Of a DNA stretch of 64,000 bases, positions 4,293 through 56,034 are shown piece after piece. How positions within the stretch are numbered: the first letter of the stretch is position 1; each line of letters begins with the position of its first letter. This DNA is from Amoebophrya sp. A120 (lineage: Eukaryota; Protista; Dinoflagellata). Location: positions 1,509,216 to 1,573,215 of the forward strand of contig CAJINV010000011.1 in NCBI GenBank assembly GCA_905178155.1, given 5' to 3'. The translations under genes were made by a program, and so were the position numbers. The notes beneath the pieces were generated by a model. That model was not told the DNA's origin. It made no database searches and saw only the letters and a list, made by a program, of their open reading frames with translations.

Positions 4293-7200
4293 ATGCCTTT
4301 GTATCTCACCGCCAAGTTCAAGATGATGCCTGCCCTTGTGGCAGCTGCACTTGGGGGCGGCATCACGTCGACCTGTGTAGTAACGGCCTCCAATCCTGTC
4401 CGGCCTGGTCCCGTGGCGAAGGGCAAACCAGCTCCGAAACGACAGAGCAGACGTCCGGGGGAAGAACAGCAGGGGCAACATCAGTTGCACTACACAACCG
4501 GAGCACGCTCCACGGTGCGCGTTGTTGGAAGAAATCGGGCCTCCGGACGAGGTGGACAGCAGCAGCAAGGTCGCGCAAGTAACGGTCAGCTGCGGGCGCA
4601 GGAACAGCAACAGCAAGACCACCTAGACCAGCGTGCAGCCATCCCCATCGACGAGGCATTTGCAGATCGCAACCGCCTCGCCCGGACCCAAGTTTTGAGC
4701 GACCACCTGGACAGAACCCAGCCCCAGAGCATTGCGGACGCGAACCTGCTCCGGGCCTTTGTACGGGTCTTGGAGGACGAACGGCGGACGAACAACGGAG
4801 GTATCCGAGACCAGCAGCAAGGACTGCGTCAGCAATCCTTCAGTGGTCCTGTTCGTCGGACTGCTGGTGCGGGACGTCCAGGCCAGCAAGGTGGACAACA
4901 ACCTGCAGTCTATGAGCAGCCGCGCGACACAATGCTTCTACAATACCCCCAGCAGGAGCAGCCACAACGGGGGGATCAGCTGCCAAGTTTGATTTCTCCC
5001 TCCGGCGGAACAAACTATGCAACCCATTCCCTGCACCAGAACCTGTCTGCTGCAACCGTGACTCGCACCCCGTCGCCGACGGACGAAATTCTGAATCACT
5101 TCAACACGATGGAGGATGAGGAGCACGACAATTGGGGCCGAGACAGCTACAGCTCTGGGTCTGGAGGTTTTTCGTCGCCAGAACAAGTCGAATTCGGCGC
5201 GGAAGAGGATGCTTTCATGCGGTCCTTTGCCTGGAACGAACACGACGACTCGCTGACCATTCCGCCGTTTCAGCATTTTTACATCAACCGAGGCCGCGGC
5301 CACAATGACCATCTGCAGATGAATACCATTTCCTGTCCACCGGGGCTGGAAGCCAGAGCCACTCCCGTGACTACTTCGAGCACCTCCATTTTTCCCCGCA
5401 CCAGCACGCCAGCGATGGTTGTGGCTCCGCAGCCGCAGCGTCAGGGCCTTTTTCTCCCGGACCAAGATGAAGATCCGTTTGCGCTGCAGCTGCCCAACAT
5501 GCAGCAGCCCATGCGTGTGGAGATTTTTGACGGGAAAAAGCAAAGCATGGGTCAACAACGTCCGACAGCCAGTGCCTCCGCGGCGACCTCCTATACGTAC
5601 ACCGCCGGTCAGGAATTCCTGAGCGCTGCCACGGCGACGCCCTCATCTCCAAATGGAGTCACTCCCACTGCAGCGGGAACAGCCGGCGCTCCTGCTATGC
5701 GGGCACCGCCCGGGTTGAGTTTAGATCCCAGCAAGTCGAATGGCAGTGTGAGGATGATGTGGATGTGTGTCCCTGTGCCGTTTGATAACAACAAAAAATC
5801 TACAACTTCCAGCCCCGCCGCGGGCAAAGAAGAAGCAGCTCTTGCCCCAGCGCTGGTCGATGGCCATCTTCTACAGAATCTGCAACTTGTTCAGGATCAT
5901 GCTGGTGGCACCGACATTACGGCTGACTCTACGGACGACGTCGAGCGATTGAAGTCCGAGGTTATCGACTATGGAACTCTCAAACGTTACATTCTCAACT
6001 GTTACATGATTTGTCATGCAAATTTACCACCAAGATCGCCGCGATCAAGCTGCTTCGCATAGCAAATCTGCGAAGGGCTAAACAGCATCGAAATCTGTGC
6101 CAAATCTGTAATGCAAAAGGCGCAATCTTCGCCAGTTCACTTTTGCCGTTCTTGCATGACAAACTTATGGAACAGTTGAGAATGTAACATTTGAGAACGC
6201 CATATCGACATGCTGAGGGATATGGGTGACAACTTTGGCACCCAGCTCTCCGACGCTGAGGCAGTGGCCGCCCTGCAGATTGTCAACGAGCGCCTGGCGA
6301 AGCACTCCGAGGAAGAGATTGCGAAGGCCAGGAATTCCCTCGAAGATGGGCGCGCTGAACAAATGAGGCCGATGAAAGCAATCGGACGAGGAGGAGGACC
6401 AGAAAGCCCCACGACGACTCGTCAACACCGAGCATTAGATCATGCTGAAGCCGGCGGCGCGGCCTTCAGAGCACAAAGAAGTGCGACACAAGTAGAGCCT
6501 TTTTTGTCCTCCTCGCAGACGACTGGGGTCTCGGTCAGCAAAAAAACTGCTCTACCGCTGACGAGGGAAAACCAAAACGTGCAGGCGTCTCAGAGCGCGT
6601 TCCTGGCGAAGACTGCTCCAGCACCGGCGCCCGTCGGCTCCTTGGTGCACAACTTCTACACGCTCGAACCGATGTCTGCACATCAAACCGTAGATCGCGT
6701 GCCGCACCAACAACAGCGTCATGATCATCTGGCGTCGGAACAAGAAGATCATGTTCCACAACCGCCGCAGCCCCACCCGCAGTTGCGCCGCTCGCTGAAC
6801 GTCCAGAGGGGGCAACCGAGAACCCCTGGCCAGCAGCACGATGGTATTATTAACGCGAAGACGAGGAACGAGCACGGCAACATCATTATCGTTTCGAAAG
6901 GCTCCGTCGGGCACCCGCACGCCTGCCAGCAAGCCTGCAAGTACCACGGCAAGAAGAGCGGGTGCAAGGACGGAAAGGACTGCGACCGCTGCCACCTGTG
7001 CTTCTGGACGAGCAAGCTCAGCGGGGGCCGGAACTCGCCCGAAGCGAGGGAGAAGCGAAAGGGGATGAAGGAACAAGGCCTCTTGTCGGGAGGTCGAGGC
7101 GCTGCTTCGGCAGCTGGAACGAACCAAGAACAAGAAGACATTATTACACCACAACCTGGTCATCTCGTCTCTTCATCCTCTCCCGCGAGCAGCCCGAGTC

Positions 7201-7445
7201 AACAACAAGAGAGCATGTTGTACAACAACTCAAGCCCTGCCTCCCCGGCGTCTCCGTGGGTCGGGGTCGCTGATCAGCTGGCGGGAACTCGGGAAGATGG
7301 CGTTTTTCATCCAACAGGCAGTCCTTTCTCGACCAGAGGACAAGAAACTGAATCTGCCGACGTGCTGAACCAGGACATCATTCCATTCGCGACGATGAAG
7401 AAAGGCGCACGCGCAGGCCCGATGCTCCCGGGTCGCGTGTCGTGA
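4293..7445 (+). CDS. Protein with hydrophobic N-terminus and C-terminal CCCH-like Cys/His finger (paralog A); one non-canonical intron
   Basis: ORFs 4143..6062 and 6210..7445 join in frame after removing 240 nt (5970-6209). Motif SKGSVGHPHACQQACKYHGKKSGCKDGKDCDRCHLC. Colinear similarity with the gene at 10783-22921. Confidence 0.75.
5970..6204. mobile_element. TIR introner (family E), TSD TCGAC
   Basis: ~50-bp imperfect TIR tatggaactctcaaacgttacattctcaactg / cagttgagaatgtaacatttgagaacgccata; TCGAC at 5965-5969 and 6205-6209; paralog has a single TCGAC at 20428-20432. Confidence 0.92.
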
Positions 7446-10782: not shown

Positions 10783-13700
10783 ATGTCATCCTTCACAGCC
10801 ATCAACGGAACGATGATGGCAGTGGCTGCCTTTATTTTGTTTTTGGCAGCAGCTGGTGGTGTCTTCACTTGTGATGTTGTGATGGGCTCTAGTCCACCAG
10901 CACCTTTGCCAGTTGGACCAGTTGGACCACGTCGAGCATCCGCTCTTGCGAAAGGCAAGGCACCAGCCCCGGAAGGACAATCATCCAGGGGTCGTGGTTC
11001 TTTCTTGCTGCCGCGACCAATACCGCGACCAATATCCAAGAAAAGAAGAGGACCATCTTCACATGAGTCACTATCTTCACTGGATACAACCATATATTAT
11101 TCGCAGGAATAAGATTGTGACATAAATGAACAAATCATGGGGTGGTCGTAAGGTTCTTTGTGTAGAAGTGGTAGTGCTGCTGTCGTCATTCGAGGATACA
11201 TCATTGTCGTCGTGTAGTAGCTCCTTCTCCAGGTGGACAAGGAATTTTTGTTATGTCCGCGGAGATACAAGTGCCACGACCTGTTGCTATTGTTAAGTAT
11301 TTGATTCTTGTGATCAGGTCGTGGGAGATTGATGTTGCGCGGACCGCGGGCTCTGATCAGGATATACATAGTGGTCGCATGACAGGAGAACAACTTATCT
11401 GGTACTACAACATGTCGTTCGACATCAAATTTCCCATGCCAATGAAGTTGCAGTTGGTAGATCTAGATAGTGCTCCTTGTTTAGTGGTGATTTTTTCATT
11501 TTGTTCCATAGCCACGGCCAGAGCCAGACCAGTTTGAGCACCCGACCCCCGGGGCTGCAGGACCCTCGTGGTCCGCCGTTGTTTCGGAGCCTCCGGATCA
11601 CAGACAGATGACCACCAGCCCCGGAACTGCCGGAGTAGTACAGGACGAGACAGTGCACACACCGATGACTACCAGCACCGGAACTGCCGGAGCGCAGGAC
11701 GAGACAGATGGTACTAGAGGAGGTACTAGCAGAACCGGAGCCCCCCAGACAGCACAGACACAGTCACAGCTCGCCTTCGACGTCGGCGAGTCTTCGCAAG
11801 CGACGCTAGGCGAGCAGCGCAACCAAGCCTTCGCACGCCTGAGCGAGTCTGCGCGAAGGAGAATACAGCGTTATCGCGCTTGGCAAGGCGAAAGAAGAAG
11901 AGGACAGCAAGAACAGCGCGCAGAGCTGCAGCTGAGCCGTCTGGCGCAGGATAGTGGTGCTTCAGCGGCGTTGCGCGCTCGCTCGTCTGCGGGGGTTCAT
12001 CTTCCCGGAGGCACTAGTACCTCCACCGAGGTTCTTGTCCCCGAAGCCCAGACACACGACGAGGACCCCGGGCACAGGCTACAGGAGCGTCAGCGAGCTC
12101 CGCAAGCGGATGAAGGACTTCGAGAAGAATGGACAGAACTAGTACACCACCAGCAAGGCAGCCACTGCGAAAATCTATTGACGGAATTGCTTCATGAAAA
12201 AAGTATGCAAGAACTGGGGGTTGCAGCAGCCGTCCGAACCGTTCAAAGATTTTTTATCAAATGCAAATATGTTGTATGTAGTGAGGTCACCGAACGGTTC
12301 TAACCAGGGAGTTTTTTTGACAGCTACCCTGAAAAACGACCGGCAGTTTTCAAGCGGCCGGAAGCGTTTTTGCACATAAAAAATTTGCACTTATCAAGCG
12401 GCCGGGGCTTTGAAGTCAAACAAGCCCGGTGGAAAACTATCGACTCGCACTTGATAAAACGACGCAGGGGAGCCGGCAAAAGGGGCGCCCTTCTGAGGCG
12501 CCCACCGCCTTGGTTTCTGGCGATTTGGGGCGCCCAAAAAGGGGCGCGCAAAGAACGCGCTCAAAATCAGAACAGCGAAACAGCATGGCACGGCCGCGAT
12601 TTCGGAGCACTTTAGGCGGCCGCGAAAGCGGCCGCCTTTTCGCCGGTTTCAGAGCCTGGGAAGCTTTGCAAAAAGCGCCGGCGTGAAAAATAAAAACGCG
12701 AAAAAGAAAAAGCGCCCCAGACGCGCAAAGCCAATCCGCATGCTATGGGCCCGATCTTTCTTCGCTTTTTGGGCGCCCCCCGTAGCACCCGGATCGGCCC
12801 CATAGCATGGGGGCTGGCTTTCGGAAAGGAATTTCGGGAATTCGCCAAAATTTGTGACGTTTCTCAAGTGACCGCCATACCGTGCGGCATAACGTTACTC
12901 ACGGTGGTATGGCGAGCCCAAAAAAAGCAAAGCCGCGGCCAAGTTGGCGGTCGGCAAAAAAACGCCCACGACCTCACTACCCCCGCCCCGGCGGCTATAT
13001 TTCGTAAGTTGTATGGGTCTGGAAGGACGCAACTTGTGATGCTGATTTTGGATTCTACAGAAATTTGTATTGCGTGAGCAGCAACAGGAGTCCAGTGCAT
13101 GGTATGCGGAGGGGGCGGCATTTCTCATGCGGTATATCTATGCATCAGGAAGTACTCCTAAAATCTGTGATGCGAGGGCATACATCACAGACATCATTGG
13201 TCATGCAAAATGTGCATGACAAGTCTTGCAGCCTTCCAGACCCAGACAGATTTGCTATTGATAAGATTCGAAGAGCAGCAAGAAGTGGCATTCGAAGAAG
13301 CCCTCCGAGCCGTTCAACGGTTCGAAGAGCAGCGCTTTTTGTATGGGGGTGTCAGGATGGAAATCGACAAAGTGGAAATGGTTTGTCGTGCATATGAAAA
13401 CCGATCCCAGTTGGGCCCCCAATTACTAAGCGCCGGCGCATGACAAAAAAATTTAGCTGCAGTGAAATCCAACCTGTGATGCTGTTTCGGGCAAAGCAGG
13501 GTACACCTGTCATGCCCCTTCGCAGCTCTATCTCTCCCCGAATCAGGCTCCAGCTCGGTCTCACTTGGCATCCTTGCAAGACAGGCACTTTGTGCCTCGC
13601 ATTTTATGCATCACATAATTATTTCAACTTTGTTGATTTCGGTCCTGACGCTTCCATATTTTGGCGCCGGATTATAGTAATTATATCTCGGGCTTGCGCG

Positions 13701-16700
13701 ATCGCTCATCCCCCGCGGCTTCCGGCACCAGCGACCGTCTGAAAGCTGCGCAAGAGTTTCTACATGAAGCAGAGACACATCTGCAGCAGGCTGAAGCTGC
13801 CGGAGCACAGCTGGCACACGACCGGCGGAAAGCTGCGCAAGAGTTTCTACATGAAGCAGTGACACATCTGCAGCAGGCTGAAGCTGCCGGAGCACAGCTG
13901 GCACACGACTGGCAGAACGATGCGCAAGAGTTTCTACATGAAGCAGAGACACCTCTGCAGCAGGCTGAAGCTGCCGGAGCACAGCTGGCACACGACTGGC
14001 AGAACGATGCCCAAGAACTTACACACGTAGCAGAGGCATGTCTGCAGCGGGCTCAACATATCACATCAAGAAGAGCACATATCGATTTGGGTCGGGAAGG
14101 AGGTTGTCATCATGCTATTTTGTGAAAGCTACTTGAAGATGAACGCATGAGTGCAAATAACATCAAAATTATGCAGATGAGCCAAAAGCATGAGCAGCGC
14201 AAGTTTTTGAGCGGCTCCTTGTTCTTCGGTATATTATCCACCGCATAAAATACTTTATATACTTCGTTTATGCGAGGAAAATGAACACCGTAAGCACTTC
14301 TAGACTTTTTGGACACGACGACACAAGAGCATGATGTTGCGTCACAACCACGACATCGCACAGCAGTGTTGATGTCAGCTGCTGAGAACAAGCAAGCATC
14401 ACAAATGTTGCATTCTTCCAGGCCAGCCAGTCCGATATTTGCAATCCATACAGTTTCTGCAGCGAAATCTACTCGACCAAGAGCTGTACCAGATAAGAAT
14501 ACCCCCGCGCGAGGAACAGCCCCCGGAGGTGGAGGCTGCGTTGCAAACCCTGGGGTGCTTGCGCGATCGCATCGAGAGTACTGCTGGTCCAGACAGCAGC
14601 GCGGAAATTGAGTTGCTCCAAGGTGCTTAATTACTTTTGAGTATGTAATTGTCGAGATTAAGACAAAATACTTTGGCTGCATTATTATATGTAAAATCCC
14701 CGCAAAAATGGTAGTACGTGTTGTCAACGCGAGACTGTAAAGGTAAAATGTGGAGGGATTCTTCCAGTCCACCTCCGTCTTCGTTCTCTGATGGTGTTTC
14801 CGCGAAGTCGACTGGAGGAAGGAACTGTTCCTGCTCGGAAAATTTTATCTTGTTGACGAGCGTCGCTTTCCGCAACCCGAACAAGAACCCAATTGCGCAT
14901 GCAGCCGTAAAGGACTGCTTGGTCCAGTAAATCGGGTCCTGCATTTCTATCAGTTCCTCGAGCATTACTGGCGGAGGCTGGGTGTGTGCGAATAGTCCTT
15001 CTCGTTTCTTCCGCGTGACCAGCTGAGACAGATGAATTTTGTCTGCCGCCCCCAAGTTGCTGCCACCTGGGATCGCTTCTAAACGCGCGACGACAGACCA
15101 TAGATAGTCATCGGCCGTCGCGTAGAAGCTTCGCCCGACCTGATCGCCGACTAATGCCGTGAAAAACAGCGTTGCGTGCTGTCTGGTGATCGGCCATGGT
15201 TTTTTCAAGAAGGCGCACTCCTTGTGCTGCGAAGCCCGTGTGCAAAACTGGAAATAGCACTTCAGCCGAGACTCCTCTGTTGTTGCAGCAGGCCGTCGTG
15301 TCATTTCCTTATGCGCCGCCTGCATGCGTGGAAGGTCGTCAAGGAGTTTGAATACTTCGTCCTTCTGTTTTGTTCGTCGTTGTTTCTCCGGATCGTGTGC
15401 ATCGCGGTAAAGTTGGAGAATGCGCGGATGAGCTGCTACTTCAGAAAAGAACCCGGGCTTGAATTTGGCTGTTGGATCTTTCTCCGAAGGAATAATTCCT
15501 TGTGCCAGAAGTTCCGCGTCTCCGCAAGCTGCGATTGCTGCGGCAAAAACTTCTAGTTCTGTAACTTCCTGGTGCTGGGACTTGGCTGCTGGTGCCGCGG
15601 GGAGAACTGGCGCGGTACAAATCGGGTCGGAGCTTGATCTTTTTCTGGATGGCTGTGCGCGTGACTGCGGGACGATTCCGCACTGCCACTGTAAACTTGC
15701 AGTATCGTTTTCGGCCGATGCTATCGAGAGTACTGCTGGTCCAGACAGCATCGCGGAAATTGAGTTGCTCCAAGGTGTTTTGCGGGTCTTCATGGAGCAA
15801 GAAGACCGCGCGCAGCGTCTTCGACGTTTTTCAGGGCTCGCCGAAGGAGCTTCTGCCGCCGCAGTTGTAGAGGATCAGCAACAAGGACAGCAATTTTTGC
15901 AATCGTCCGTCGGGCATGATACAACTGATACTGGTACGGCGGTATTTTTGCACCAACAACGACAAGAACCTCGTCAGGAAGTGTGGACACAGTCCTCCTT
16001 GTTTTCGTTGCCAGAGGCGGAAGTCGAAGTCGATGATCTTGAAGAGCAGGACGAGCCTTGTTCTTACAGGAAGTGCTTTACCTTTGCCAGTGATGAAGAT
16101 AATGAAGACGGTGAATTAGTGCTATGAGAGTGCACAAGTCGTCCCTCTCCCCCTCATCAGTTGTATGGCACGAACAGCTGCATCTGCAAAAACATCACAG
16201 GTGTCTCCAACACAAGTGGAGTCTGTTTTTTATCATGACAAGTATTACTTCACGTCGCGCCGATTGTAGTTCGTTGTGGTTGTCAAGTTTCCGGTTCGGT
16301 GAATTAATTTGTTTGCCCGGCCGCAAACAGTGCCACAAGGCGGCAACTGGATTTGGGTTGACTTAGCGTGAGAAATCATGATGCATTCAGGGACATGATC
16401 GGGGCGCGTTCCGTTTAGTGCCTTGTTGTGCAGCAGCACCCCATGGACCCGCCCGCACGACCCCTGGGCAGCACAGGCTTTACTCTAGCGCAGCCGCTGC
16501 CGCAGTCTGTTACGCATGACAAATGGAGGGGACGAGGAGGGGACGAGTGCTGCTCTACTTTCATATGAGGATGAAGACTGTCTGACCAGCATCCCCATTC
16601 CGGCCTTTGCCCGTCACCAGGTCGAAGAACAGCACCAGCCGTGCGATCAGACGAGGTCGTCCTCGTCCTGTCCACCCGAAGCTCCAACTCTGCTGCATGC

Positions 16701-19700
16701 CAAAACATCAACTCCAGGTCGTTGCAGTAGGTGTTCTCATCTATCTTCCCGAAATGTTTATTCGAGCACCCGGCGGGAAGCTTTCAGGGTCTTCTGCCAG
16801 TGCGTCCACCATCACCGCGGAAGCGGTGCCAGCGGTGAGTGATTGGGGCGGTGGGTGCGAGAATGAGGCTCGTTTGAAGAGTTCCAAGGGGTCTCGAGGG
16901 GCCTGCGTACCAAGCCCGCACGAGCCGGCTTGCGGCCTTTTTTGGGTCGCGAGTACGCAGGGCCCGGGGCCGCGAAAAAGATGCCCGCCTGCGCCTGTTG
17001 GGCGTGCTGTGAGTGCCCGTGGGTCGCGTCGATCTGCGCAGTGGGGGGGCCACTTTAGTCTATGTCTAGGCTCGTCGGGGTGTTGGCGTGCCTGTTGGTT
17101 CCTCTAGAGCGACGCCTGGGCCGCGTGCAAAAACCCACCAGGGGAGGCAACAGCACTCCTACGCAGGCGCGACCATAAAAACTGCAGCGCCTGCGTTGGC
17201 GCAAAAAAAAAAGGGCAAATCCCGACGGTATGCTGCGAATTTCTTTAGGGATAAGAACAGCGCTGAAGATCACCTATTTCATCTCTATACAGCGGCGAGG
17301 CTACATGGAGCGATGGTGGTGCTGGTTCCGGTTCGGGAGGCCGCGATCTTGGCCTAGCTCCCCGCGGACCCGCTTGTTGGTTTTTTGCTTTCCGCCCTCG
17401 TGGAGCTGTAGCTCGGCCTCGTCGCCAAGCAGTTCGCCCGCCTTTGCCACTGCTTTCGGCCCGGCAAGCTTTACTAGATTTATACACAGGCGCTCCACTG
17501 CTTGCTTCTGTGTCATTCGCGGAGGCCGTTTTTTAGTTTTCTCCCGCTCGAACATGTTCGCGAACCCGTAGCTGCTCTCGTTTTCATCTTCTTCTCTGCC
17601 TGCTGGAACACCGGCGCCAAGACCTCTTTCGCCGCGGAGCGAGTCGTAATTCCCAAAGAGGTCTACCCTGCAATCCTTTTTGAACTGCTCGGCGCGGGCC
17701 CCGAATCCACTGGCGATGGCTTTAAGCTGAAAGGCGCCCGCGTCAGTGCCCGCATTTGCTTCTCGCGCTGTTGTCTTTTCCTTCTGCGTGTTTACTTTCG
17801 GTGGGATCGCAGCCGCAAAAGGCGCGCCCACTCTGGCTTCGACGCTAGAGCTACTGCTGCTAGTGCTGCCGGTCGCGGAGCCCGCTTCCTCAGGTGCTGG
17901 CCTTGCTCGTGATTCCAAGTTCCGTGTCTCGCGACTATTTGCATTCCGAAACGACATCGCAATGGAAGATGACGAAGAGGAGGATGACGGCTGGGCCCGA
18001 TGTCTTTCTCCGATTTCATCGGGTGCTGGCACTGGGAGTGGGCGGGGCGATCTCATCTCCTTCCATAATTCACCACCTTTATTTGCTGAAATTCGAGCTG
18101 CGAACCTGCCTGTTGAACCACGTGGGGCCCGTTTCGACCGGGTGGTGCTGCACACTGCTGCAGCTCACCAGGCTGCTTGTTTTGATGCGCCAAATCCTCT
18201 CCGCACGAAGCTACCTCTCGAGTCGCCGCGTCCGCGTTATGCATCACAAAATGCTGCACTAGAAGTGGAATCCAGAATGCAATTTTTTTCAGAAGCAACA
18301 AGCTCGAGCTGTTTCCTTATAAATATATTTGTCATGCAAAATCGAGCAGCCGTGCGATCAGACGAGTTCGTCCTCGTCCTGTCCACCCGAAGATCTGCTG
18401 GAGGCCCACGCAAGGACGATGCCCTGCACCACGCCGGCGAGGATCCTGACTCCTCCGCTAAGTATTATCCTGTGTAAGAACGTCCCCACCCCATAGTCAA
18501 GATGGGGAATCTGGATCTGCTACACAAATCCATTAGTTTTGGCTGTCGAGCATGACAGGTTCCGGCTCGTAGTGTAATCCTGTTTAGCTAGTAGTGCAAC
18601 CGCATGACAAATTGACTATCTCATCCTGGTTCTAGCATGACAAACTCCCAGACAGCATTAGAAAATGACGCTCATGGGGCTGCGCATGAGAGACATTTTA
18701 GGCTTGCGGATTTGCACGACAGCCATGGGGTGGGGACGTTTTTACATATGATATTCGCCGCAGTGCCAAGAGGACGTTCTGTCTCGTGAGGCTGAGGTTG
18801 ATGTGGGCATGACCATGACGGACAATATTCATGTTGATAAAGTGCTGGGCCCGCTTATTCTTGCCGAGCTGGCCAACTACAGGCAGCGCAGGATCATGCG
18901 GCAGGTGGTCCAGGACCAAGGGTTTGGTCATGGTGCCGGCCAGACCCAGACGAACTACATCAAGGGACGCCAGCTGATGGAAAATAAAACGGAGCCGGGC
19001 ACCAGTGGGGATGATGTTAACGTCGCTTGTTCCACGACGACCACCACGGCGACTGCATACAGCCCCCCCTCCTCTCCCTCGCCTCCTTACATCGTGGCGG
19101 GCCAACAGTTACTATGAATTGCAAAAGTATCGCACTCGTATAAATGCATTACAAATTTCCTCAGCATGAAAAATAAAATTTGTAGTGCTGATTTACCCTA
19201 AAAAAAAATGTATTCATTGCATGATTGCAATACGAGTACGATACTTTTGCACACGATAGTTACTCGATGCCGCGATGTGGTCTCCTAGCGCCAGCCGTGC
19301 TGGTTCAGCCAGTGTATAACCTGCTCAGATGTTGCAACCTCAAGCGTTACAATAGAAATGGAAATTTGTGATGCAAAAAGTGAATAATTGAATGTCTAGT
19401 CTGCTGTCACGAGATTGCGCATGAGAAGTTTTTACAAAGCTCCAAACCCCATGAGAATCTGGCAAAATTTGTATTGCGAAAAGCGCAAAGCTCTGCATGT
19501 TCCACCTCATGCTCTCTATGCAAGACAAATCCCAGAATCTATATGTAACGTTTGAGCAGATTGTAACATCTGAGCAAGCCATACAGTGGTTTTCGTGCTT
19601 CTAGTGTGCGAGCTGTAGTACCCGCCTCCCGGTCAACATTTCTAGGTGTAGAGGAGGACATATGAAAGCCTCAGAATGGAAATTCTCAAAGTGGAAATAA

Positions 19701-22700
19701 TTTGTGATGCATGAAATGCGACACCAAAAAGACTGTATTGCAGAGGACGCAATGGAGGCCGACTATTGTGCTTCTACGGGTTCAGAATTGGGCTGCTGAT
19801 TAGCACGAGAGAAGGGCACACCTTTGCCCTAACTAGCATGACAGACATGTTTTGAGTGCCCGGGAAATTTGTCATGCGCGGCCGATTAGAAATGGCACTT
19901 CAACTGGAATTGTTTTTTTGCATTACAAATCATTTCCACGTTGAGGATTTCCATTCTGAGGCTGTCATAGGACACAGCTTTTGCTGCTGCCACCAGTTCT
20001 TCGAGCGGCAAAAGTGGCAGAATGATGTGGACGTGCGCGCGCGTGCCCCTGAATGACCTCCAAAAGAAGCCGGAGGCCGAGCCCAGCTCGACGTCTCCTG
20101 GCACTACCAAAGGGGCAACAACAACTGCTTGCGGGAGAAGAAAAGAAGATGGCTATAATTTTACGGAGGGGGTTGTTCTTCTTGCGCCGCAGCCGGGTCT
20201 ACCTTGTTTCTCCTTCAGTACCTCACCGCCAACGCTGGTGGACGTGGAGGGGTTCGAAACCCCAGACGCGGATGCTGATTGTGATTTCCCTGCCCGGACC
20301 TCAAGTACGAACAGCATGATGACAGTCCAACAAGATAATGTGCACAATGTACTCATCACGGACACGGAACAAATGAACGAAGACAACATCGTCCCTGCCG
20401 ACGTCGAGCAACTGATGTCCGAGATTATCGACATGCTGAAGCACATGAGCGATTTCGAAATGGAGCACCGGCTTTCCGACGCCGAAGCACAGGTTGCCTT
20501 GCAGATCATCGACGAACGTTTGGCGTTGAGTACGGATAGGGATATCGTGCGAGCCACTGCGCTGTTGCGCAACAAGTGCAAGAAAAGCAAGCGGAACTTC
20601 TTGTGCGAGGACGATGCAAGAACTTGTAGTGCATCAACATCAGAGGCAGTGAGGCTGGAGGACGCCACGCGTCAGTGGCAGCAGAAGCTGCGCGGCCTCA
20701 TTATGTTTATGACCACGAAGACCGATATGGAAGCGTCCGGATTGATGAAATCGACAAAGTTGAAATAATTTCTCATGCATAAATTGCAAGGCATGAAGTT
20801 GCGCCTCTCTTGCAGGGATGGCAAGTGAGGCCGACTGTCAGCCTGTAGTTTGGGGTCTGCGAAATCAGAGCTGCTAAAGTAGCATGACAAAACACGCCCT
20901 CTGTCCCTAAACAGCATGACAAACTGGATTTAGGCGGTGCCGAAAGTATTCGTCATGCACCGCTTGGAAATTGAGCTTCCAACAAGTATCCATTTTATGC
21001 ATCACAAGTTACTTATTTCAGCTTTGTCGATTTCAATTCTGACACTCCCATAACCGAACGCAGTTCTTACCGAGTTCTTCAAGGAGGAGTCGAAAAATGC
21101 GCCAGAAGTATCCCGAGGAAAAACGTCCTCACCCCAGAGTTGTCATGCAAATCCGCATGCCAAAAAATAAAAATTTCTCATGCGGAGCCCCATGAGAACC
21201 ATTTTCTAGTCGTGTTTTGGAATTTGAATTTGTTATGCTAGAATCAGCATGATGTGCTAGATCTATGATGCTTCGGAACTAGCTAAACAGGACTAAACTA
21301 CGAGGGCAAACTTGTCATGCGAAACAGCCAAAGCTGGCTGATTTGTGTAGCAGATTTCCCATTTTGACTCTGGGGTGGGGACATTTTTACTCAGGATAAG
21401 AACTGCGCCAACTTCTGCGACCGCCAGCACAGCGACAGGCTCAGGCGGCGCTGCGTCTTCTTCCTCGACGTCGCAGATGGCTCAGGTACAGAGCACCTCC
21501 AAACCGCCCTTGAAGATGAGCCCGGTATTAAGCAGCATTTCGTCTCAGACTGTCGCGGCGAGGCCCTCCTGCAGCTCCCCAGCAACGGCAGCACAACCAA
21601 AGATTGGCCGGCCCACGAGGAACTTCCTGATCCCGCGGCAGTACAACTACACCAAAAAACTCCCCCCGGCGCAAGGAGAAGTTGTGTTTGCTGCACGGAA
21701 GGCGCATGCGCAAGCCGCGACGTTCTTACAACGATCACCACCAGGAGGGAACAAGCTGCAGAACTCGAGAAGCTACGCGTCTGCCATCCGTGGCCCCCAC
21801 TCGGGGGCCAGCAGCGCCACGAGTAGTACTACTGAACGACTTGCAACAGTGCACGAAAACGTGCCGCAAGATGATCATTCGCCGGAACAGCGGCCCCAAA
21901 CCCCGCAGCTGGAGCCGCGCTCCTCGTGTGATGTTTTCCAAAACTACTGTACTTCGTCGGCCGCCCACGAGGACCATGACGGTAGAAGTGGTGCGACGTC
22001 GTCGTCGTCGCGGCAGGAGGAGCCCGGGGGCTACACCGATGTCGTCTCTAAAGGCTCGCTGGGTCACCCGCATACCTGCTTATGCATTGCAAAACAACAA
22101 GTGTCGCACACGTCGCACTGGTATAAGTAAACAAACTGCTTGGGTGCAATTTATTTCACATCAATGCGAAGGAGAGGCGCTTATTGTATATTTCATTTAT
22201 AAATATGCTGATTAGAAGTGCAGCTGATCATAAAACCAAAGGCGGTGATGGTTCCGCAGTACTATCGCAGTTTTTTACTATATACAACTAGTACGACTAC
22301 GAGTGCGACACGACCACCTTTGAAGTGGATACTGGCAAGCTCCGTGTAAATACAACTGGACAAAAAAGGGCTGCAAGGACGGAAAAAACTGTAACCGCTG
22401 CCATTTGTGCTCCTGGAAAGACTTCTACGGAAAATTTGAAGGCAAGCACCGGCCTCGGTCCCGGTTCCGGTTCTCGGACCCCGATGCCTGTGGTTCCGGT
22501 TCCGCCTCCGCCGAACAAGCTTCGTCCCCTATTACAATGAAAAATGCCCCCACCCCACACTTGGCAGCATTTGTGTTGCAAATCTTTCCAACAGAAACAT
22601 TTCCCGTCTTGCATATCTCAGCATCACAAACTTTCCATGCTGAATAGGTCGAATTTGTGTTGCGAAGGGGCCCAACAGCAGCCGGATCTGTTACGCACAA

Positions 22701-22921: not shown

Positions 22922-25361
22922 TGCTGGATTTGGATACACGAGGAGGACTAAAAGTCAAAAGAGCAGCAAATAGGCAGAGAAACATCAAACGATGGTCGGA
23001 ACCATTTCGAACAGGACAGAAATTCGATTGCGTGGCCCGTGCGATTATTCGAACAAGGCGACTGCTACGGAACAGTGTCGAGTGGGAACGTTGGGAAATA
23101 AAAAGCTAATAGTACTCAGAAGATGCTAGAAGATTTGTTATTCTGACAAAGAAGTACTAGAGGTAGAGCCCTTTTCTTTGTCTCAACGTCGTACCAGTTC
23201 AGTGGTCACACACGACCTGGAAGAGAGCAAGCACACCGAATCGGTGCAGCTCCATCAAGAGGCATTTCGTTTTGCATGTGCCTGCTTCTACGCAGCTACT
23301 TACCAGTTCCGGCTGCTTGAGAAGTGCAAGTGTATGAACAGCAATAAAAGCAATGTCGTAAATTCCTAACAACATAAGTTACTTTTTTCCTGCAGACATT
23401 TTTTTTACCCAAGGCCCTCCCCCCTTCTTATTTTGCCTGCAGGTTTCTGATTGTTTGCAGCGACCAAGAAGGCTAGTTGATACATAATACATAGAGGAGT
23501 CAAACCAAGTCTGGAGGTACTACGGGTGACATGAACATGGTTGTCTGTCACTGTGCTTCGAAAGATGTTGTTAATTGACTCGCATCTTCAATACGAGTGC
23601 ATAGAGATCATGCGCCGTGGTCAACACCGCGGCTCTAGATCTTACGATTAATACCGGCCTTAGATCTTACGATAGAAATGATACAAGACCGCGGCCCTAC
23701 TAGAGGACGCTCCTCCTTACGCCTACGCACAGGGAGGACTGCCTCATCACTGCTGATTGGTGCGTGGTGCTTGCAGTGCCTATAACTAATACTACCGTGT
23801 GAAATGAGTGATTCTTTAAATGCTTTAATGATTTTCGATAGGAAGAGTACACAGAAGATTCACGTATACATGTCGTAGCTTTCGCTTTTTCACGCTACTA
23901 GCTTGCTTTACGTGCAAAATTTTCAAAATCCAAAAACCTTCCCTGGTTCTTCTTTCAGGCCTCGGATGAAGAACTTGAACTTTACAGAAAAAACAGCAGA
24001 AAACAGGAATGCCATCGGATATCGGTTGCGATTTCGCAAAACGTGGTGAACGCTCCAAACAAGTGGCGCCATTTTTTCCATTTGTATATTTATTAATATT
24101 TCTTGAAGATCAGCTCTGACACATCCTTGGTCGCTATAATTCGCGCCCCCGGCAACGTGAATTTTTGGTTGCCCTGTAGTGACATAATTTACTTATACAA
24201 CTTCATATGATGTAGATGTATAATTGATTTTTTTTTAGCTGATCATGAAGAGTCTCGTGGGTAGGTCAATGTCGTCTGTATTTCCGGCTGTAGTTCCTCT
24301 CCGTAACTAGAGCACAGTCGGGCGTGTCGTGGATAGTGTTGATGTACGATTGTGCTCAGCATAACCGTCAGAACATATGAAAAGCTGTGAAGAAGAACCA
24401 TCTCAGCCTCATTTCTACTTATCATAATATACAACTACTGACGATGAACACGAATGTTTCGTCCTCGAGAGACTGTTCCTAAGTGCGGTGCAGGACCACC
24501 GTGTTGTTGAAATAGATGACGTTGATCATTCTTTTCCTTGCGCTTGCGCAAAGATTTAGGAAAAGAACTTCTTTTCCATTGTATAGGAAGAGTGCTTCTT
24601 TTAAAGAAGCACTCCGCTTTATAAAGAAACTCTTTTTCCATTGTATTTTGATTATTCCGTTAGCCAATGCCAAACTTTATGCTGATGGAATAGCCCAGCC
24701 TCGCAAGTTCAACACCTTGCTCGACGTTGTTGACGCCGAGTATGTGCGGTGTGAGGCTCCAAAAGTTTTCCTTTTTCTTAACCGCAAATCGCTATGGTAC
24801 GATTACGAAGAGGGCCACGGCCACCAATTCAGAGGTATCATCTGCAGGTGGAGTGATACGAAAACGATAAACCGTGGCCATCACCAAAGGCATGAATATC
24901 ATAAATTAAAAGTACAAGTGGACACAAAGACAATATCAATATCTAAGAAACTCATCCAAAAACTATTTTCATAAAAGACTTAGAGTGGTAAAAATCCTGC
25001 GTTTGTAAAGACTTGTATACAGTTTAGTTTTCAATGTATACACAAAGACAAATTCAAAAACCACGTTGACGCAACTCGCACACGACCGTAGTTGCGCCAC
25101 GAAACACAAAGAAAAGTCGACATCATTTGTGTCGAGATAAAGTCGACCGCAACAGCGCGCTGTTTAGTTCGTGTTTTTTCTTTGTGCTTTTGAGTTTGTG
25201 GAAGTTTTTCTAGTTTTCTTCCTCGTTATTGAAATGGTGGTGACATTATAACATGATGAACGTCTTCTGATCAGGTTTTTCAGTTACTAGCACGACTCCA
25301 TCTTCTTTGTGTTGGTGGAAAAATCCTCCAGATGACTTGAGGCGAGGCTCGAACTGGAAGC

Positions 25362-28300
25362 ATGATGCCCCGTGTTTGTACAACAATAAACATAATGTTC
25401 ACAAGGCTCGTCGTGTTCTGTTTCGTCCGTCATGCAGCGCTGCTGTTTCAGCTCGTTGTCGTTCCCGCGCTACGGCCCCCGACCTCCGCGGCGAGCCAAC
25501 AAGCCACAACTAGCCCATCGTTTAGCGGTCGGGCTGGCGAAGATGCTGATGAACATCAGAGCGTCTTTCTGCAGTCGGACGAAGAGCTGCGCGGGGGTCG
25601 TGGCACAAACGTTGATCTTCCTGCCGGACAACAAGCATCTCAGCAGCATGGCGAGCTGCACAAGAGTCATTTCTCTACCACTAGCACTAGTACTTCTGCA
25701 GTGTTGACAGGGGCTGCGGCTACAACTCATCATCTGGAAGAAGATCATGGTGCACGACACAGTAGCTTTCAACATCAAACCCGGCTCACGAAGAACTCGA
25801 ACTCCACCATCGAAGCCGCAACCTCCGTCAAGGATCGCCTCAAAGCCGGCTGCCACCCCCGGAACCTCGCGCCGGTGCTTTGCGGCAGTCTCTTAGCGTT
25901 GCAAGCGGCGAGCAACGGTCGGCTGGCCGAGGAGTCCGGGAACCCCCTGTTCGCGTCGCTCTGCAGCTCCGTCGTCGGTGGAACCGTGATGCTGGCCTTG
26001 GGCGCGATGTCGGCGGGATCCGATTGTGTGGTGAAGAAGTTGTTGTCGGTGTCGGGGAGGAACGCAGAACAAGAGGAAAGTAGTGCTCAGTCGGAAGAAA
26101 AGAACTCTCCAGAACCAGATCAAGATCCGGAACAACAAGGTGTGTCAAACGACGGCAATGTTTCGCTCACAGCTCCACCCAGAAGTGAGGACACCTGTGC
26201 AGCAGCGCGGTCGAAAAATCACCGCGGGAACGAGCACAGAGAGGAAGATCCGCTCGCAGACGCGCGGGGCCTTGGCTTTGGGCAACAAGTGGTCGGCGTG
26301 TCGGAAGGTAACAGGCCACGGTGGAACTCGCACAACGTCGGAGTGGCGTCGTCATCCGTGCCTCCTGTGGGATCATCTTGTTTGAAGGCCGCCGTGGTGC
26401 CTTCAGGTTTAGCTGAACCTGAACAAGTCGACGTTGCGCGTAGTGCACGACCTACCACCAGCACGGACAGCTCCCCCTCCTCCTGTCCCGGGCCACGGGA
26501 CGTTTTAAACGCCTTAGCGAGCGTGGAGGAGGAGCAAATGCAGGATGCGCTGCTGCTGAGTATCAACGCCGCCTGCTTGGATTTTATGGGCCAGGACGAG
26601 GTGGTTGACGAGCATTCCAGGACGGTGCGGCAACAGATTGCGTACGAGCCTATCGAGGAAGGTGCAGCCGGGTTTGAAGACCAGTACAACTCCAATCCAG
26701 AATCGGATCTAAGCACCAGCGGCGAGGCTACATGGAGCGATAGTGGTGCTGGTTCCGGTTCGGCAGGCCGCGGCGGGCACTTGTTCCGGACTTCTTCTGC
26801 TTCGGGGGCAACAAGAATATTAACCGCGGACAAAGTCGCGAGATGGAATGTCGCGTGGGCCATGGCGAGGGGGGAAGGCGACGAAGAGGCAGAGGGAGGT
26901 AAACAATCCAACAGCGGTCCTCGTCGTGTACTACGATCTGCAGTCGACGCAAACGCGATGGACACAGACGATCAAGAAGAACAAAGTGGATCGGAAGCGA
27001 ATGACCAAGAAGATGATCGAGGGAAATCGAAATTGGTCGAAATTGAAGAGAACTACGTAGGGAAGCTGCCTGGGCTGCCTGGACCACGACCGTCGGAATT
27101 GCCAGCCGCTTGTTATTCTGGCGCAACACAAGTTCTTGACGAAACCTCCACAAGAAGGCTGCCTGATCCGGAACAGCAGCGATTACACTCTATCTTCGGA
27201 GACGATGATGATCACGTGTTGATGGGGCAGCACCACCACCACGACCGGAGCGGAGTCTCACCCCCGTCCACTTCACCAAACAGAGCAAGCCGCGCCACGG
27301 GCTGTACAACTAGCAGTTCCAGTAGCAGCGCACGGCCGCCTGCTCGGATGTTCTCCACAGCCTCCCCACGAATAACTGACTGGATGCGGCAAAAGGCGCG
27401 TGGAGGTCTGAACAAGGAAGCAGACGGCGAAGGCCGTTTTAGAGCTACGACTTCCTATGACAAGAAATCCAATTTTTCATTTTCTCTCCACCCACGCCGG
27501 AAGCCTGCAATCGACGACCCTTTTGGCGACGATGCTGGAGGTGGGGACACGTCCGCGTCAGATTTTGAAGGAACAACGGAAATGATCCTCAATTTGGACG
27601 ACGATAGTCCTAGCAGAAGTGACTTCAACAACGTTGCGCCCGTGGTGCTCGGGAAACGCACTTCACCTAGACTGTCACACGAAAGCAACACGCATGTTCT
27701 GAAGGGTGTTGCCCTTCGGAAAGCCGATGGCGGGACAGATGGTAAGACGCAACAAATAATTGGCCAGCACAAGAAGCGGCATGGTGGGCAGCGTGATGTA
27801 GTTGCAGATGGCTTTGCCCTGGCGTCGGTGCACCAGCAACTGCAACAACAGGGCGATTTTGCTTCTACGAGCAATAAAGAACAAGAAACAACCACCACCC
27901 CGAGCAAAAGCGCGAACCGCAGACGACCGTTTAATTTTTTCCCGCCAACATCTTCTTCCTCCGCTCGTCAGGCAGCGCAGCAGTTTCTCGATTTGTTCCG
28001 AGCCAAGAGCACGAAGCAGCTGCAAGCGGCAAGAAAGCTTTTCTACGAGCTGAAACACACGAAAAACAAGAGGAAAAAGCTCTGGTTCCTCCGCCGGTTC
28101 CTGTCCCGCCTGGTGCTCGGCGGCCCGGTCGCCGCCAGTGCGGTGGCGCTCGCCTGCATGGCCGTACCGAAAACGGGCGTTTTGAGCTACACCATGGCCT
28201 GGATTGTTGGGCAGATGTTCGTGTCCGCAGCCGTGGACCACCGGGGGAGCATGGGCATCAAGCGGAAAATGACGGGAAAAAAGTGCCTCGCCTCCCTCCT

Positions 28301-29302
28301 CGCCCCCGTCGGCCTGTTAGTGGCCGCCGCGGGGCAAACGGGAACTCGCTCCCCAGCAGGAGAAACAGATCAGAGTCAGTTGGAAGCACTGGTGAAGGTT
28401 TTAATCCCCTCGAACGACAAAGCGCTCTACCTTCTCGCGGCGATGTTGAGTGGCGGCTTGATGCCGGTCGCTCGCGTCTCTCTCGTGCAGTTGAACGCGC
28501 TCTTACCGAACCGCATGCTAACAACCGGGGGGATTGCGTATGTGTCCGGTGCGTTGGCGCAATTTCTATTCCTTGTGATACTGTCCAAACCATTGGGTTT
28601 GACGACAGCGAGCGAACTCTTCGATGGTTTGTTCGACGGGAATGACGATCCATCATCCGACTTTGGTTTTGCTAGCACGGCGGGAACTACTAGCGCAACA
28701 AATTTCACGACTTCTACTATTGCACCAACAGCAGCTGCACAGCTTGCCGTAGAAGCTTCCTCGTTCAGTAGCAGCAAAAGCCTAGAAGCACTTCTCGTCC
28801 GCCTGCCGCTGATTACCTGGTGTGGCGGCTTCGTGGGCGCGGTGCAGTTTTTTTCTATTCTACTCTTCCAGAAGAAGATCGGCGCTTTGCGGTACTTTCT
28901 CCTCGTGTTGCTCGGACAACTGTCCACCAGTCTGCCTTATAGATTGCAAAAATGTGTGGGTCTGAAAGAATACAAACTTGTGATGCGCATTTCAGAACAC
29001 AGAAAAATCTCTCATGCATAGGTAGCAAAAGCTGCCCACATTCTGTCCCCAAAGCGGGGGATTTGTCATGCGGATTCGGCATTGCGGAAGCTTCTCGAAA
29101 CCTGTGATGCTAGAGCTTCCATGCCAGACCTTCTGCGTCATGCAAAAATAGCACGACTCTTCTAGACACAGACATTTTTGCATTTGATATGCCTCTGGAC
29201 CACTACGGACTGCTGGGCTTCGAAAGACGCGAGGTCACAGCGTATCCGGTGGCGGGGGTGGTGTTGGTGTTGCTGAGTGTGCTGTTCAACCAAGCGCTGT
29301 GA
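25362..29302 (+). CDS. DMT-superfamily (YdcZ-like) membrane transporter with very long low-complexity insertions
   Basis: GSLLALQAASNGRLAE..NPLFASLCSSVVG; GQMFVSAAVDH; WCGGFVGA; after intron removal GQLSTSLPLDHYGLLGFERR..VAGVVLVLLSV, the typical YdcZ-type repeat ending. Confidence 0.8.
28938..29189. mobile_element. TIR introner (family A), TSD TGCCT
   Basis: TIR tatagattgcaaaaatgtgtgggtct / agacacagacatttttgcatttgata; 257-nt removal restores the conserved DHYG motif. Confidence 0.93.
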
Positions 29303-29572: not shown

Positions 29573-31516
29573 GGCATGAGCGCAAATAACAGCAATAGCA
29601 TCGTGATTGGTGTTTTTGGTCTAGATGAGAGCAAAACTGCGAAACCCACCACGACCGAGCGCAACCCACCGCAACCCACCGCAACCCACCGCAACCCACC
29701 GCAACCCACCGCAACCCACCGCAACCCACCGCAACCCACCGCAACCCTCCGCAACCCTCCGCAACCCTCCGCAACCCTCCACAACCCTCCACAACCCTCC
29801 ACAACCCTCCACAACCCTCCGCAACCCTCCGCAACCCTCCGCAACCCCCCACAACCCTCCGCAACCCTCCGCAACCCTCCTCCCCCCGCTCCGCTGGTGC
29901 TTCCTTACCCCCCCCCGCTTCTTATGTGTGATCTGCCATGTGTGCAGTGGCTTTGTTTTCTTTTTTTGGGAGAATGAAAAAAGTATAAAGCAGGAGCCCT
30001 CCGGAACCCCCCTCCCCCCGCAACGCTGGTGCTTCCTTACTCCCCCCGCTTCTTATATGTGATCTGCTATGTATATAGTAGCTTTGTTTTCCTTTTTTGA
30101 AAGAATGAAAAAAAGTATAAAGCATAAGCCCGCTGCAACCCTCCTCGCCCCCACCGCTCCGCTGGTGTTTCCTTACTCCCCCCGCTTGTTACATGTGATC
30201 TGCTATGTATGTAGTTAGCCTTGCTGTCTTTTTTTGAAAGAAAAAGAATGAGAAAAAGTATAACGCGCAAAGTAAATTATGAGGCTGCAGCGATCGGTTG
30301 CGTTGGTTATGGCTTCTGGATCTACCCAGATCGCTGCAGCCCCATAGCGCCCTTCCTTGTTATGTTGTATACTTTCTTTCATTCAGCAGAGTTGCCATTA
30401 GCATAGCGCGCCACATATAACAAGTGAGGGGAGTAAGTAAGGAAACACCAGAGGAGCGGGGGGAGGAGGGTTGCGGCGGGTTGTGGAGGGTTGTGGTGGG
30501 TTGTGGAGGGTTGCGGCGGGTTGCGCTGGTTTCTGGATCTACCCAGATCGCTGCAGCCTCGACACTGTATGCTTGTGCTTTGTGCTTTTTTTCGTTCTTA
30601 AAAAAAAAAGGAAAAAGCACGACTATATACATAGCGCATCACATAGAACAAGGGGGGGAGTAAGGAAACACCAGGGGAGCGGAGGGAGGGGGGTTGTGGA
30701 GGGTTGCGGGGGGTTGCGCTGGTTTCTGGTTCTACGTCTACCCAGATCATGGCAGCCTCATCGCTTACTTATGCTCTATACTTCTTTTTAGATATTCTTT
30801 CAAAAAAAGATGAAAAAGCCTCTATATACATAGCAGACCACATACAACAAGCGGAGAGAGTAAGGAAACACCAGGGGAGCGGGGGGAGGAGGGTTGCGGA
30901 GGGTTATGGAGGGTTGCGGAGGGTTGCGGAGGGTTGATGTGGTGGATTGCAGATTTCTGGCGTGTATTCTAGTACTTTCTTTTTTTTTTATTCGTTCAAA
31001 AAAAAAAAAACAAAGCTACTATACACGTAGCAGATCACATATAACAAGCGGGGGGAGTATGGAAACACCAGGGAGCGGGGGGAGGAGCGGGGGTTGCGGT
31101 GGGTTGCGGTGGATTGCAGATTTATGGTGTGCATTATAGTGCTACTTTATTTTTTTTCATTCTTTAAAAAAAAAAATAAAAAACAAAGCGGAGGGTTGCG
31201 GTGGGTTGTAGATTTATGGTGTGTATTATAGTACTACTTTACTTTTTTTAATGTTGTTATACTAATATATATTAGATTATAATATAATACTATTATATAT
31301 TCTACTAATATAATAGCACTAATAAAATACTAGTAGTGCTAGTATGTGTATGCATATATGCGGGGGGGGAAGAGGTTCGCCCGGGCGCGGAATTCGGCTT
31401 TTTGCCTTTTTTCTCAAAATTGAGGAACACGCCGGGGATCCAATTCGTTGCAGTTCTTGCACAAGTAGGAAAAAAATGCAAATCACGATGCTACTGCTGC
31501 TATTTGCTCTCATACC
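29573..31516. mobile_element. ~1.95-kb foldback-type (possibly MULE-related) non-autonomous DNA transposon
   Basis: ~45-bp TIR ggcatgagcgcaaataacagcaatagcatcgtgatt / aatcacgatgctactgctgctatttgctctcatacc; flanking repeat caagaacatgg at 29564-29574 and 31516-31526 (8-10 bp TSD depending on boundary); internal modules mirrored about ~30300. Confidence 0.8.
29660..29880 (+). repeat. 10-bp tandem array GCAACCC(A/T)CC, ~22 copies
   Basis: Directly visible; reverse-complement units (GGGTTGCGGA) recur at ~30470-30520, 30690, 30890-30935, 31090, 31190. Confidence 0.95.
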
Positions 31517-55720: not shown

Positions 55721-56034
55721 CATGGGATTGCTTGGTGCATGACATAGCTATCAAATTTTCATTTTACTTGCACGGCTCCGGATGATGAGACGCAGTTTCG
55801 TGATTGCATTGGTATTCCTGGTTGGACGAGTGGGAGCGTCTTGAGCGCTTTTTGTGGTGTCATTGGTACTACGTCATTATTCCGACGGCGACTTGCTTCT
55901 ACTAAGTGCGAGGCTCTTTTGTCCACCGCCCGTCTAACATTCTTGCTACGACATACCTGACGCTGTCAATTTTTTTCTCAGTATTTCTATTTCCCTTTGG
56001 CTCCGTGCCCGCGGCCCCAGCCCCATCGTTCAGG

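What the first reader, a model, noticed from the sequence alone, without database searches (positions are those of the whole stretch)
16636..18392. Second long-direct-repeat intron; the single repeat mismatch is the GT donor
Seen: 46-bp duplication 1711 nt apart. The only difference (gagGtcg vs gagTtcg) supplies GT at 16656, paired with AG at 18365-18366. The spliced product matches paralog A (SCPP.LEA). Inference: a compensatory mutation or selection rescued the gene by making the insert spliceable. Two such events within 4 kb suggest a recurrent process.
Basis: partly seen in the sequence, partly recalled or inferred. Interest (0 to 1): 0.72.

Follow-up and report, generated by a model that had tools for sequence, protein, structure and literature searches.

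The report
Break-repair patchwork insert, possible nascent intron
In a parasitic marine dinoflagellate, a 1.7-kb patchwork of foreign DNA sits inside a gene between two copies of a 46-base stretch; the one letter that differs creates a possible splice signal and also perfects a small DNA hairpin, so it likely arose as a by-product of break repair, and whether the insert is spliced out is untested.

Summary
The 46-nt repeats lie 1,711 nt apart with one mismatch (G16656/T18367), and DNA contigs carry both copies unchanged. A close paralog (P0016, labelled Amoebophrya sp. A120) has one copy, no insert and Ser at that codon, so this is an insertion with target duplication and the G is derived. The insert is a patchwork: a 608-nt multicopy element, 56 nt matching a gene 9.4 kb downstream, and 1 kb of single-copy DNA. 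The neighbouring 55-nt-repeat insert is a truncated tyrosine-recombinase-like gene. Neither is an introner. No RNA contig shows junction 16655^18367. The G is the only one of 276 substitutions that gives an in-register GT-AG. But it also perfects a hairpin on which the repeat is centred, and the first event's mismatch lengthens a hairpin too while not being a splice site. 43 of 46 in-frame GT-AG pairs need no G. Best reading: capture of loose DNA at a staggered break, with a fold-back-templated change; compensatory selection is possible but not required. The scan noted a similar patchwork insert with an 87-bp duplication in Ostreococcus. New variant of a known kind; interest 0.42.

The parts
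16636..16681 (+). Left copy of the duplicated 46-nt exon stretch; carries the derived G16656
   Evidence: X1 contig with 0 differences
16650..16667 (.). Quasi-palindrome at the exact centre of the repeat: 7-bp stem with the G, 6-bp stem in the right copy
16656..18366 (+). Predicted 1,711-nt GT-AG intron (in-register removal); junction not observed
   Evidence: one search shows no such joint
16682..17289 (.). Piece E: multicopy element of unknown class; other copies about 93% alike stop matching at 16678-16685 and 17288-17290
   Evidence: X1 depth 201-929 against 42-50 in single-copy bins; X3, X5, X6 records; no Rfam match
17290..17345 (+). 56-nt copy (2 mismatches) of coding sequence of the downstream gene
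26717..26772 (+). Matching site of the 56-nt piece inside the 1,226-codon ORF 25341-29021 (uninterrupted in the window)
17346..18346 (-). Piece F: single-copy DNA with a minus-strand open frame (17301-18164, 287 aa, unidentified) that runs out into the 56-nt piece; introner-like motifs at 18241 and 18329
18347..18392 (+). Right copy of the 46-nt stretch, ancestral T18367; the exon frame continues from it
14571..14625 (+). First event: left 55-nt copy; native AG|GT at 14622/14623; derived G14599 lengthens a 5-bp stem to 6 bp
   Evidence: G14599 present in X3 contig 14455-14600
14626..15722 (-). First insert: single-copy 5' part of a tyrosine-recombinase-like gene, cut at residue 336 of 442 of its relative, at the left repeat
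15723..15777 (+). First event: right 55-nt copy
16121..16568 (+). Neighbouring non-canonical intron (GC..GA), joined across by a contig of run X3
   Evidence: table 5
10783..22528 (+). Host gene B (approximate span), low-complexity protein of unknown function, paralog of P0016 and of the gene at 4293-7445
   Evidence: X3/X4 contigs

Best explanation
A 1,665-nt patchwork of three unrelated DNA pieces sits in an exon between two copies of a 46-nt target, likely captured by end-joining at a staggered break, and the derived G that makes the GT likely arose by fold-back-templated change of the hairpin in that target; it would allow exact splicing, which is untested. Shown: duplication, empty-site paralog, direction of the change, patchwork make-up, hairpin geometry, transcription on both sides. 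Inferred: two nicks about 46 nt apart around the hairpin, ligation of loose fragments, gap filling that duplicates the target, and origin of the G during that single-stranded phase. Selection may have kept the allele afterwards but is not needed to explain the letter.
For: Empty site: P0016 is collinear across both inserts and an X5 contig joins 16659 to 18409 with 34 paralog letters between. Patchwork. F and the first insert have single-copy depth and unbroken X1 contigs, which fits moved or foreign fragments rather than copying from an existing locus. Repeat centred on a 6-bp stem, seen in 0.4% of 20,512 coding windows. The T>G is 1 of 4 of 138 substitutions that lengthen the longest stem and ranks 1 of 138 in DNA folding gain (-2.83 kcal/mol); in the first event the T>G is 1 of 4 of 165 (rank 17 of 165). 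The first event's mismatch is not a splice dinucleotide and is kept in an X3 contig. 43 of 46 in-frame GT-AG pairs need no G. Precedents: PMC4202315, PMC8002553, PMC3820800 (passages).
Against: The splice reading has equal post hoc odds: 1 of 276 for the G, times 0.12 for a native AGGT in the 55-nt repeat, about 0.0004, against about 0.0007 for two stem-lengthening changes. The G lies at the inner end of the stem, which a simple intra-strand template switch does not explain (inference). The two mismatches of the 56-nt pair do not improve folding (ranks 93 and 127 of 168), and the first repeat is not centred on its stem. The stems are short (5-7 bp). Only two flanking repeats were available. 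Only 16655^18367 restores the exact sequence.
Confidence: 0.45

Rival explanations
1. One reading: the insertion disrupted the gene, and a later independent T>G created a GT donor that was selected because it restores exact splicing.
For: G is derived; 1 of 276 substitutions does this; the first event has a native in-register AG|GT, found in 11.7% of 55-nt coding windows; frame intact after removal; X3 reads through the competing donor at 16621 up to 16640.
Against: Junction not shown. The acceptor is GAG with CAG competitors 5 and 17 nt upstream that are out of frame with this donor. 37 of 40 in-frame pairs beyond 16640 need no G. In this lineage about two thirds of introns are not GT-AG and U1 was not detected (PMC7789003), and the adjacent intron is GC..GA. 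The G is also explained by the hairpin.
Confidence: 0.22
2. The insert is not efficiently spliced: gene B is a recently broken paralog, tolerated because a close paralog is intact, and the GT is incidental.
For: Read-through stops at 16840; an intact paralog exists; two inserts and two extra 87-nt exon copies have piled up in B; at 1,711 nt it is far above the median intron of 247 nt (PMC7789003 Table 1 passage).
Against: B-specific contigs with 0 differences in X3/X4 lie on both sides, with other introns removed; no stop or frameshift seen in exons 14455-18464, though a young insert leaves little time for decay.
Confidence: 0.2
3. Circle hop (concerns origin, compatible with the best explanation): an earlier insert in the downstream gene, flanked by 56-nt repeats, looped out as a circle with one repeat and re-entered gene B opened elsewhere, giving the order E, 56 nt, F.
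For: The 56-nt piece is in the same size class as the 46- and 55-nt repeats and sits exactly between two foreign pieces in the permuted order; F is single-copy and the downstream gene is uninterrupted.
Against: The X3 copy of E has a left flank unlike the end of F; no allele with an insert at 26717 was seen; a short templated snippet from a nearby locus explains the piece as well.
Confidence: 0.2
4. Retrotransposition with an unusually long target-site duplication and template jumps.
For: Long duplications and template-jump fillers are described for a LINE (PMC2666801 passages); E depth rises toward one end; a 4-nt overlap at the left junction with another E copy; Amoebophrya A120 has retro-derived introners (PMC12130899 passages).
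Against: No poly(A) tail at either end; no reverse-transcriptase family in the frames scanned; F holds introner-like motifs, so looks genomic; the first insert is cut in mid-ORF at its 3' end.
Confidence: 0.1

Closest known systems
[quoted passage not shown]
   Same: Foreign insert in an exon, direct repeat of adjacent exon bases at the other end, mosaic inserts, source unknown.
   Different: Daphnia junction repeats are 4-12 bp and introns about 78 bp, AT-rich, cDNA-verified; here 46-55 nt repeats, 1.1-1.7 kb, GC 47-58%, splicing unverified.
NHEJ-like integration in Ostreococcus tauri (PMC8002553, passages read)
   Same: Insert with extra 55-83-bp pieces, flanked in one line by a long direct duplication of the target gene.
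   Different: Laboratory vector, 518-bp duplication, no intron claim.
Amoebophrya introner elements (PMC7789003; sections 10 and 16, passages and supplement passages read)
   Same: Same lineage; inserts in exons with direct repeats at the ends; such elements fill the other introns of this gene.
   Different: Introners have 8-20-nt terminal inverted repeats and 3-5-nt direct repeats; these inserts have no terminal inverted repeat and 46-55-nt direct repeats. That study analysed introns of 40-1,000 bp only.
Intron gain by duplication of a proto-splice site AGGT (transposon insertion / tandem genomic duplication; PMC3443670, passages read)
   Same: The first event has a native AG|GT in both copies.
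   Different: The second event had AG|TT and needs a one-base change; the intervening DNA is foreign.
Quasi-palindrome mutations (PMC3820800, passages read)
   Same: A change that extends identity between arms of an imperfect inverted repeat, in 2 of 2 flanking repeats.
   Different: Single-base changes, short stems, one at the inner end of the stem; no genetic test.

Membership tests
Amoebophrya introner element | Terminal inverted repeat of 8-20 nt | tested here: not met
   14-18 of 45 terminal matches against a null median of 15; four well-bounded neighbouring introns 28-33. RNA duplex of ends -21.4 kcal/mol against null 5% point -27.7; 4 of 5 control introns -37 to -55, one -19.0.
Amoebophrya introner element | Direct repeat of 3-5 nt at the boundaries | tested here: not met
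   46 nt.
Amoebophrya introner element | Whole element repeated in the genome | tested here: not met
   Only piece E is multicopy; F has single-copy depth.
Break-repair-derived new intron | Insert absent from a homologous empty site | tested here: met
   P0016 and X5 contig; a paralog, not an allele.
Break-repair-derived new intron | Direct repeat of adjacent exon at the other end | tested here: met
   longer than the 4-12 bp in PMC4202315.
Break-repair-derived new intron | Removal from the mRNA shown | tested here: inconclusive
   No joint across the insert from gene B in the runs laid; contigs only, depth 2-6.
Proto-splice-site (AGGT) duplication intron | AGGT present in the target before duplication | tested here: not met
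   No native register in the 46-nt repeat; one in the 55-nt repeat; paralog Ser.
Quasi-palindrome mutation | Change extends arm complementarity | tested here: met
   2 of 2 flanking repeats; 0 of 2 mismatches in the 56-nt pair.
Quasi-palindrome mutation | Arises by template switch | not testable with these tools
   Geometry fits the first event (outer end), less so the second (inner end); inference.
Non-LTR retrotransposition with long TSD | 3' tail and RT-coding remnant or partner | tested here: inconclusive
   No tail, no RT family; the genome was not available to look for a partner.
Tyrosine-recombinase element (first insert only) | YR fold with R, HxxR, H/W, Y motifs | tested here: met
   Met for the full-length relative P0001 (alignment; Atlas structure matches to integrases, TM about 0.5; weak PF00589 in 2 of 15 relatives). 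The window copy lacks the last 106 residues. Motif names are recalled.
Tyrosine-recombinase element (first insert only) | Element class (DIRS/Ngaro, Crypton, Polinton-like) | not testable with these tools
   No genomic context of relatives obtained.

The most novel reading that the evidence does not exclude
Amoebophrya has a second, introner-independent route of intron birth: breaks around short palindromes capture loose or circle-borne DNA with duplications of about 50 nt; the palindrome templates the change that writes the splice donor, and the duplicated palindrome pairs left copy with right copy (predicted duplex -38.6 kcal/mol) right across both splice sites, standing in for the introner hairpin in a lineage where U1 was not found. 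Inserts can loop out between their repeats and hop to neighbouring genes.
Probability: 0.12. Interest if true: 0.8.

Novelty: new variant of a known kind. Interest (0 to 1): 0.42.

Why it matters
Intron births with a readable history are rare. Here the empty site, the direction of the splice-site change and two neighbouring events are all in hand, in a lineage with unusual splicing. If the junction is confirmed, it is a case where a mutation bias (hairpin perfection) rather than compensation may have written a donor, and it gives a simple genome-wide test. If it is not spliced, it is an ordinary repair scar in a redundant paralog.

Tried and rejected
No whole genome is held, so the genome-wide repeat survey was not run. 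No listed run was on record as an RNA holder. RNA junction: X3 and X4 (RNA by guess; spliced joints seen) have no cover over 16641-16677 or 17340-18470, nor over most of the first insert; this is neither evidence for nor against splicing. The base at the mismatch could not be read from the X5 paralog contig (only 1 of its 8 differences was shown, and its 34 between-letters are one short of the P0016 reading). No protein model of gene B was found in two searches; weak evidence. Programmed DNA excision with long pointers: X1 contigs run unbroken through three of the four flanks of each kind and no such joint is among the 15 of 309 joints shown; contigs drop rare forms, so it is unlikely but not excluded. 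Piece E: no Rfam match, no exact match in metagenome contigs, none in earlier notes. Piece F: no Pfam family at cut-off, Atlas uninformative, no viral locus. Loci of recombinase relatives: none confirmed. The hexamer-type coding score favoured the minus frames of F and the first insert only weakly. All four mismatches have G in the left copy; a T>G lesion-bypass bias (mentioned in PMC3820800) was considered and cannot be tested on four sites. Searches listed no paper describing 46-56-nt-repeat inserts in Amoebophrya; I read passages of seven papers only, subscription papers are largely missing from the library, and figures were not visible.
Full report
1. Observation. The stretch 16636-16681 recurs at 18347-18392 with one difference, G16656 against T18367; GT stands at 16656-57 and AG at 18365-66. 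In 30 of 30 Markov-resampled windows no exact repeat reached 20 nt. Contigs of run X1 cover 14457-16707 and 17261-18502 without a differing letter, so both copies and the G are real in that DNA; X1 may be the window's own source. Taking out 1,711 nt leaves a stop-free frame over 14455-18464, while read-through stops at 16840.

2. Setting. The nearest named proteins are labelled Amoebophrya sp. A120 by their sources, and the window is full of short introns with terminal inverted repeats beginning TAT and ending ATA, as described for that lineage (PMC7789003; I read sections 10 and 16, passages and supplement passages). There about two thirds of introns are not GT-AG, U1 snRNA was not detected, introners have 3-5-nt direct repeats, and only introns of 40-1,000 bp were analysed. 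Host gene B spans about 10783-22528. Contigs of X3 and X4 (RNA by guess) match it without differences on both sides of the insert and join across other introns, among them 16120^16569 with GC..GA ends.

3. Empty site and direction of change. P0016 (686 aa) is collinear with gene B and lacks both inserts. At the repeat it reads DQTSS like the right copy, not DQTRS like the left. A contig of X5 joins 16659 to 18409 with 34 letters that encode the P0016 reading. At the first event P0016 has Val where the right copy has Ile and the left Ser, so that T>G is probably derived in the left copy as well.

4. What the insert is. It has three parts. E (16682-17289) is multicopy (X1 depth 201-929 against 42-50), with other copies about 93% alike. 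Next come 56 nt matching 26717-26772 in the downstream gene with two mismatches. F (17346-18346) is single-copy and holds an unidentified minus-strand frame. The first insert (14626-15722) is single-copy and encodes the first three quarters of a tyrosine-recombinase-like protein, 61% identical to P0001 and cut at the left repeat. Neither insert has terminal inverted repeats above background. Outside tandem arrays, the only near-identical repeat pairs of 45 nt or more in the 64 kb are these three, all touching gene B: a local cluster, perhaps one episode, not a window-wide process.

5. Is the G compensatory? For: it is the only 1 of 276 single substitutions that creates an in-register GT-AG, and the first repeat carries a native AG|GT that 11.7% of 55-nt coding windows would have. 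Against: the 46-nt repeat is centred exactly on a 6-bp stem (0.4% of 20,512 coding windows), and the G lengthens it to 7 bp, 1 of 4 of 138 substitutions that do so and the best of 138 for DNA folding. The first event's mismatch also lengthens its longest stem (1 of 4 of 165), is not a splice dinucleotide, and is kept in an X3 contig. The two mismatches of the 56-nt pair do not improve folding. Changes that extend imperfect inverted repeats are a known mutation class (PMC3820800, passages). The two readings have similar post hoc odds (about 0.0004 and 0.0007) and are not exclusive. The G is not needed for an in-frame product: 43 of 46 stop-free GT-AG pairs do without it, 37 of 40 among donors beyond 16640, the last base covered by X3; only 16655^18367 restores the exact sequence. 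Its acceptor is GAG, with CAG sites 5 and 17 nt upstream.

6. Is it spliced? Not shown. No joint of gene B across either insert appeared in the six runs laid of ten listed. I put the chance of useful splicing at or near this junction at about one half.

7. Mechanism. Most likely (0.45): nicks about 46 nt apart, perhaps guided by the hairpin, opened a staggered break; loose fragments were ligated in; gap filling duplicated the target; the fold-back of the single-stranded target produced the G. All steps of this sentence are inferred. Single-copy depth of F and of the recombinase piece favours capture of moved or foreign DNA over copying. The order E, 56 nt, F is what a circle excised between 56-nt repeats in the downstream gene would give on re-entry (0.2; insertion through circles is described, PMC7188851, of which I saw only the search listing). 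Rivals: later compensatory mutation (0.22), unspliced broken paralog (0.2), retrotransposition with long duplication (0.1; PMC2666801 and PMC12130899, passages).

8. Known kin. It works like break-repair intron gain in Daphnia (PMC4202315, passages; PMC3443670, passages) and like integration with long target duplication in Ostreococcus (PMC8002553, passages). It differs in repeat length, insert size and the hairpin-linked mismatch. It fails the introner tests.

9. Verdict. Real feature, new variant of a known kind, interest 0.42. The boldest open reading (palindrome-guided intron birth with hopping circles) has probability 0.12 and would merit 0.8.

Noticed in passing
window 13732-14056: Exonic 87-nt unit in three full copies plus a diverged fourth; P0016 has about two units, so gene B has had further short duplications.
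   Followed up: partly
window 15775 (X3 record 2): An X3 contig begins exactly at the in-register acceptor of the first insert; may be chance.
   Followed up: no
window 13342-13658, 18466-18753, 19113-19258, 19661-19969, 21109-21398, 41159-41389, 61120-61345: Many introner-like elements with TAT...ATA ends and a recurring GCAT(G/C)ACAA motif; some reach very high DNA depth.
   Followed up: partly
P0001-P0015: A family of 15 tyrosine-recombinase-like proteins that Pfam barely recognises (2 of 15 weak PF00589); element class unknown.
   Followed up: partly
window 4293-7445 and 22324-22528: Paralog A and gene B share a Cys/His-rich C-terminal motif, possibly a zinc finger; no Pfam match.
   Followed up: no
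window 25341-29021: 1,226-codon ORF with DMT_YdcZ exporter matches (E 1.8e-25), a family described as inner-membrane exporters.
   Followed up: no
window 29581-31250: 10-nt tandem array and larger 130-200-nt repeats in two opposed blocks.
   Followed up: no
window 44001-46000 and 54001-56000: GC-rich segments (0.60-0.72) unlike the rest of the window, possibly element ends.
   Followed up: no
window 17292-17296 / 17340-17344: The 56-nt piece is bounded by a 5-bp inverted repeat symmetric about its centre.
   Followed up: no
window 55906-57639: AFG1-like ATPase (E 1.2e-49).
   Followed up: no
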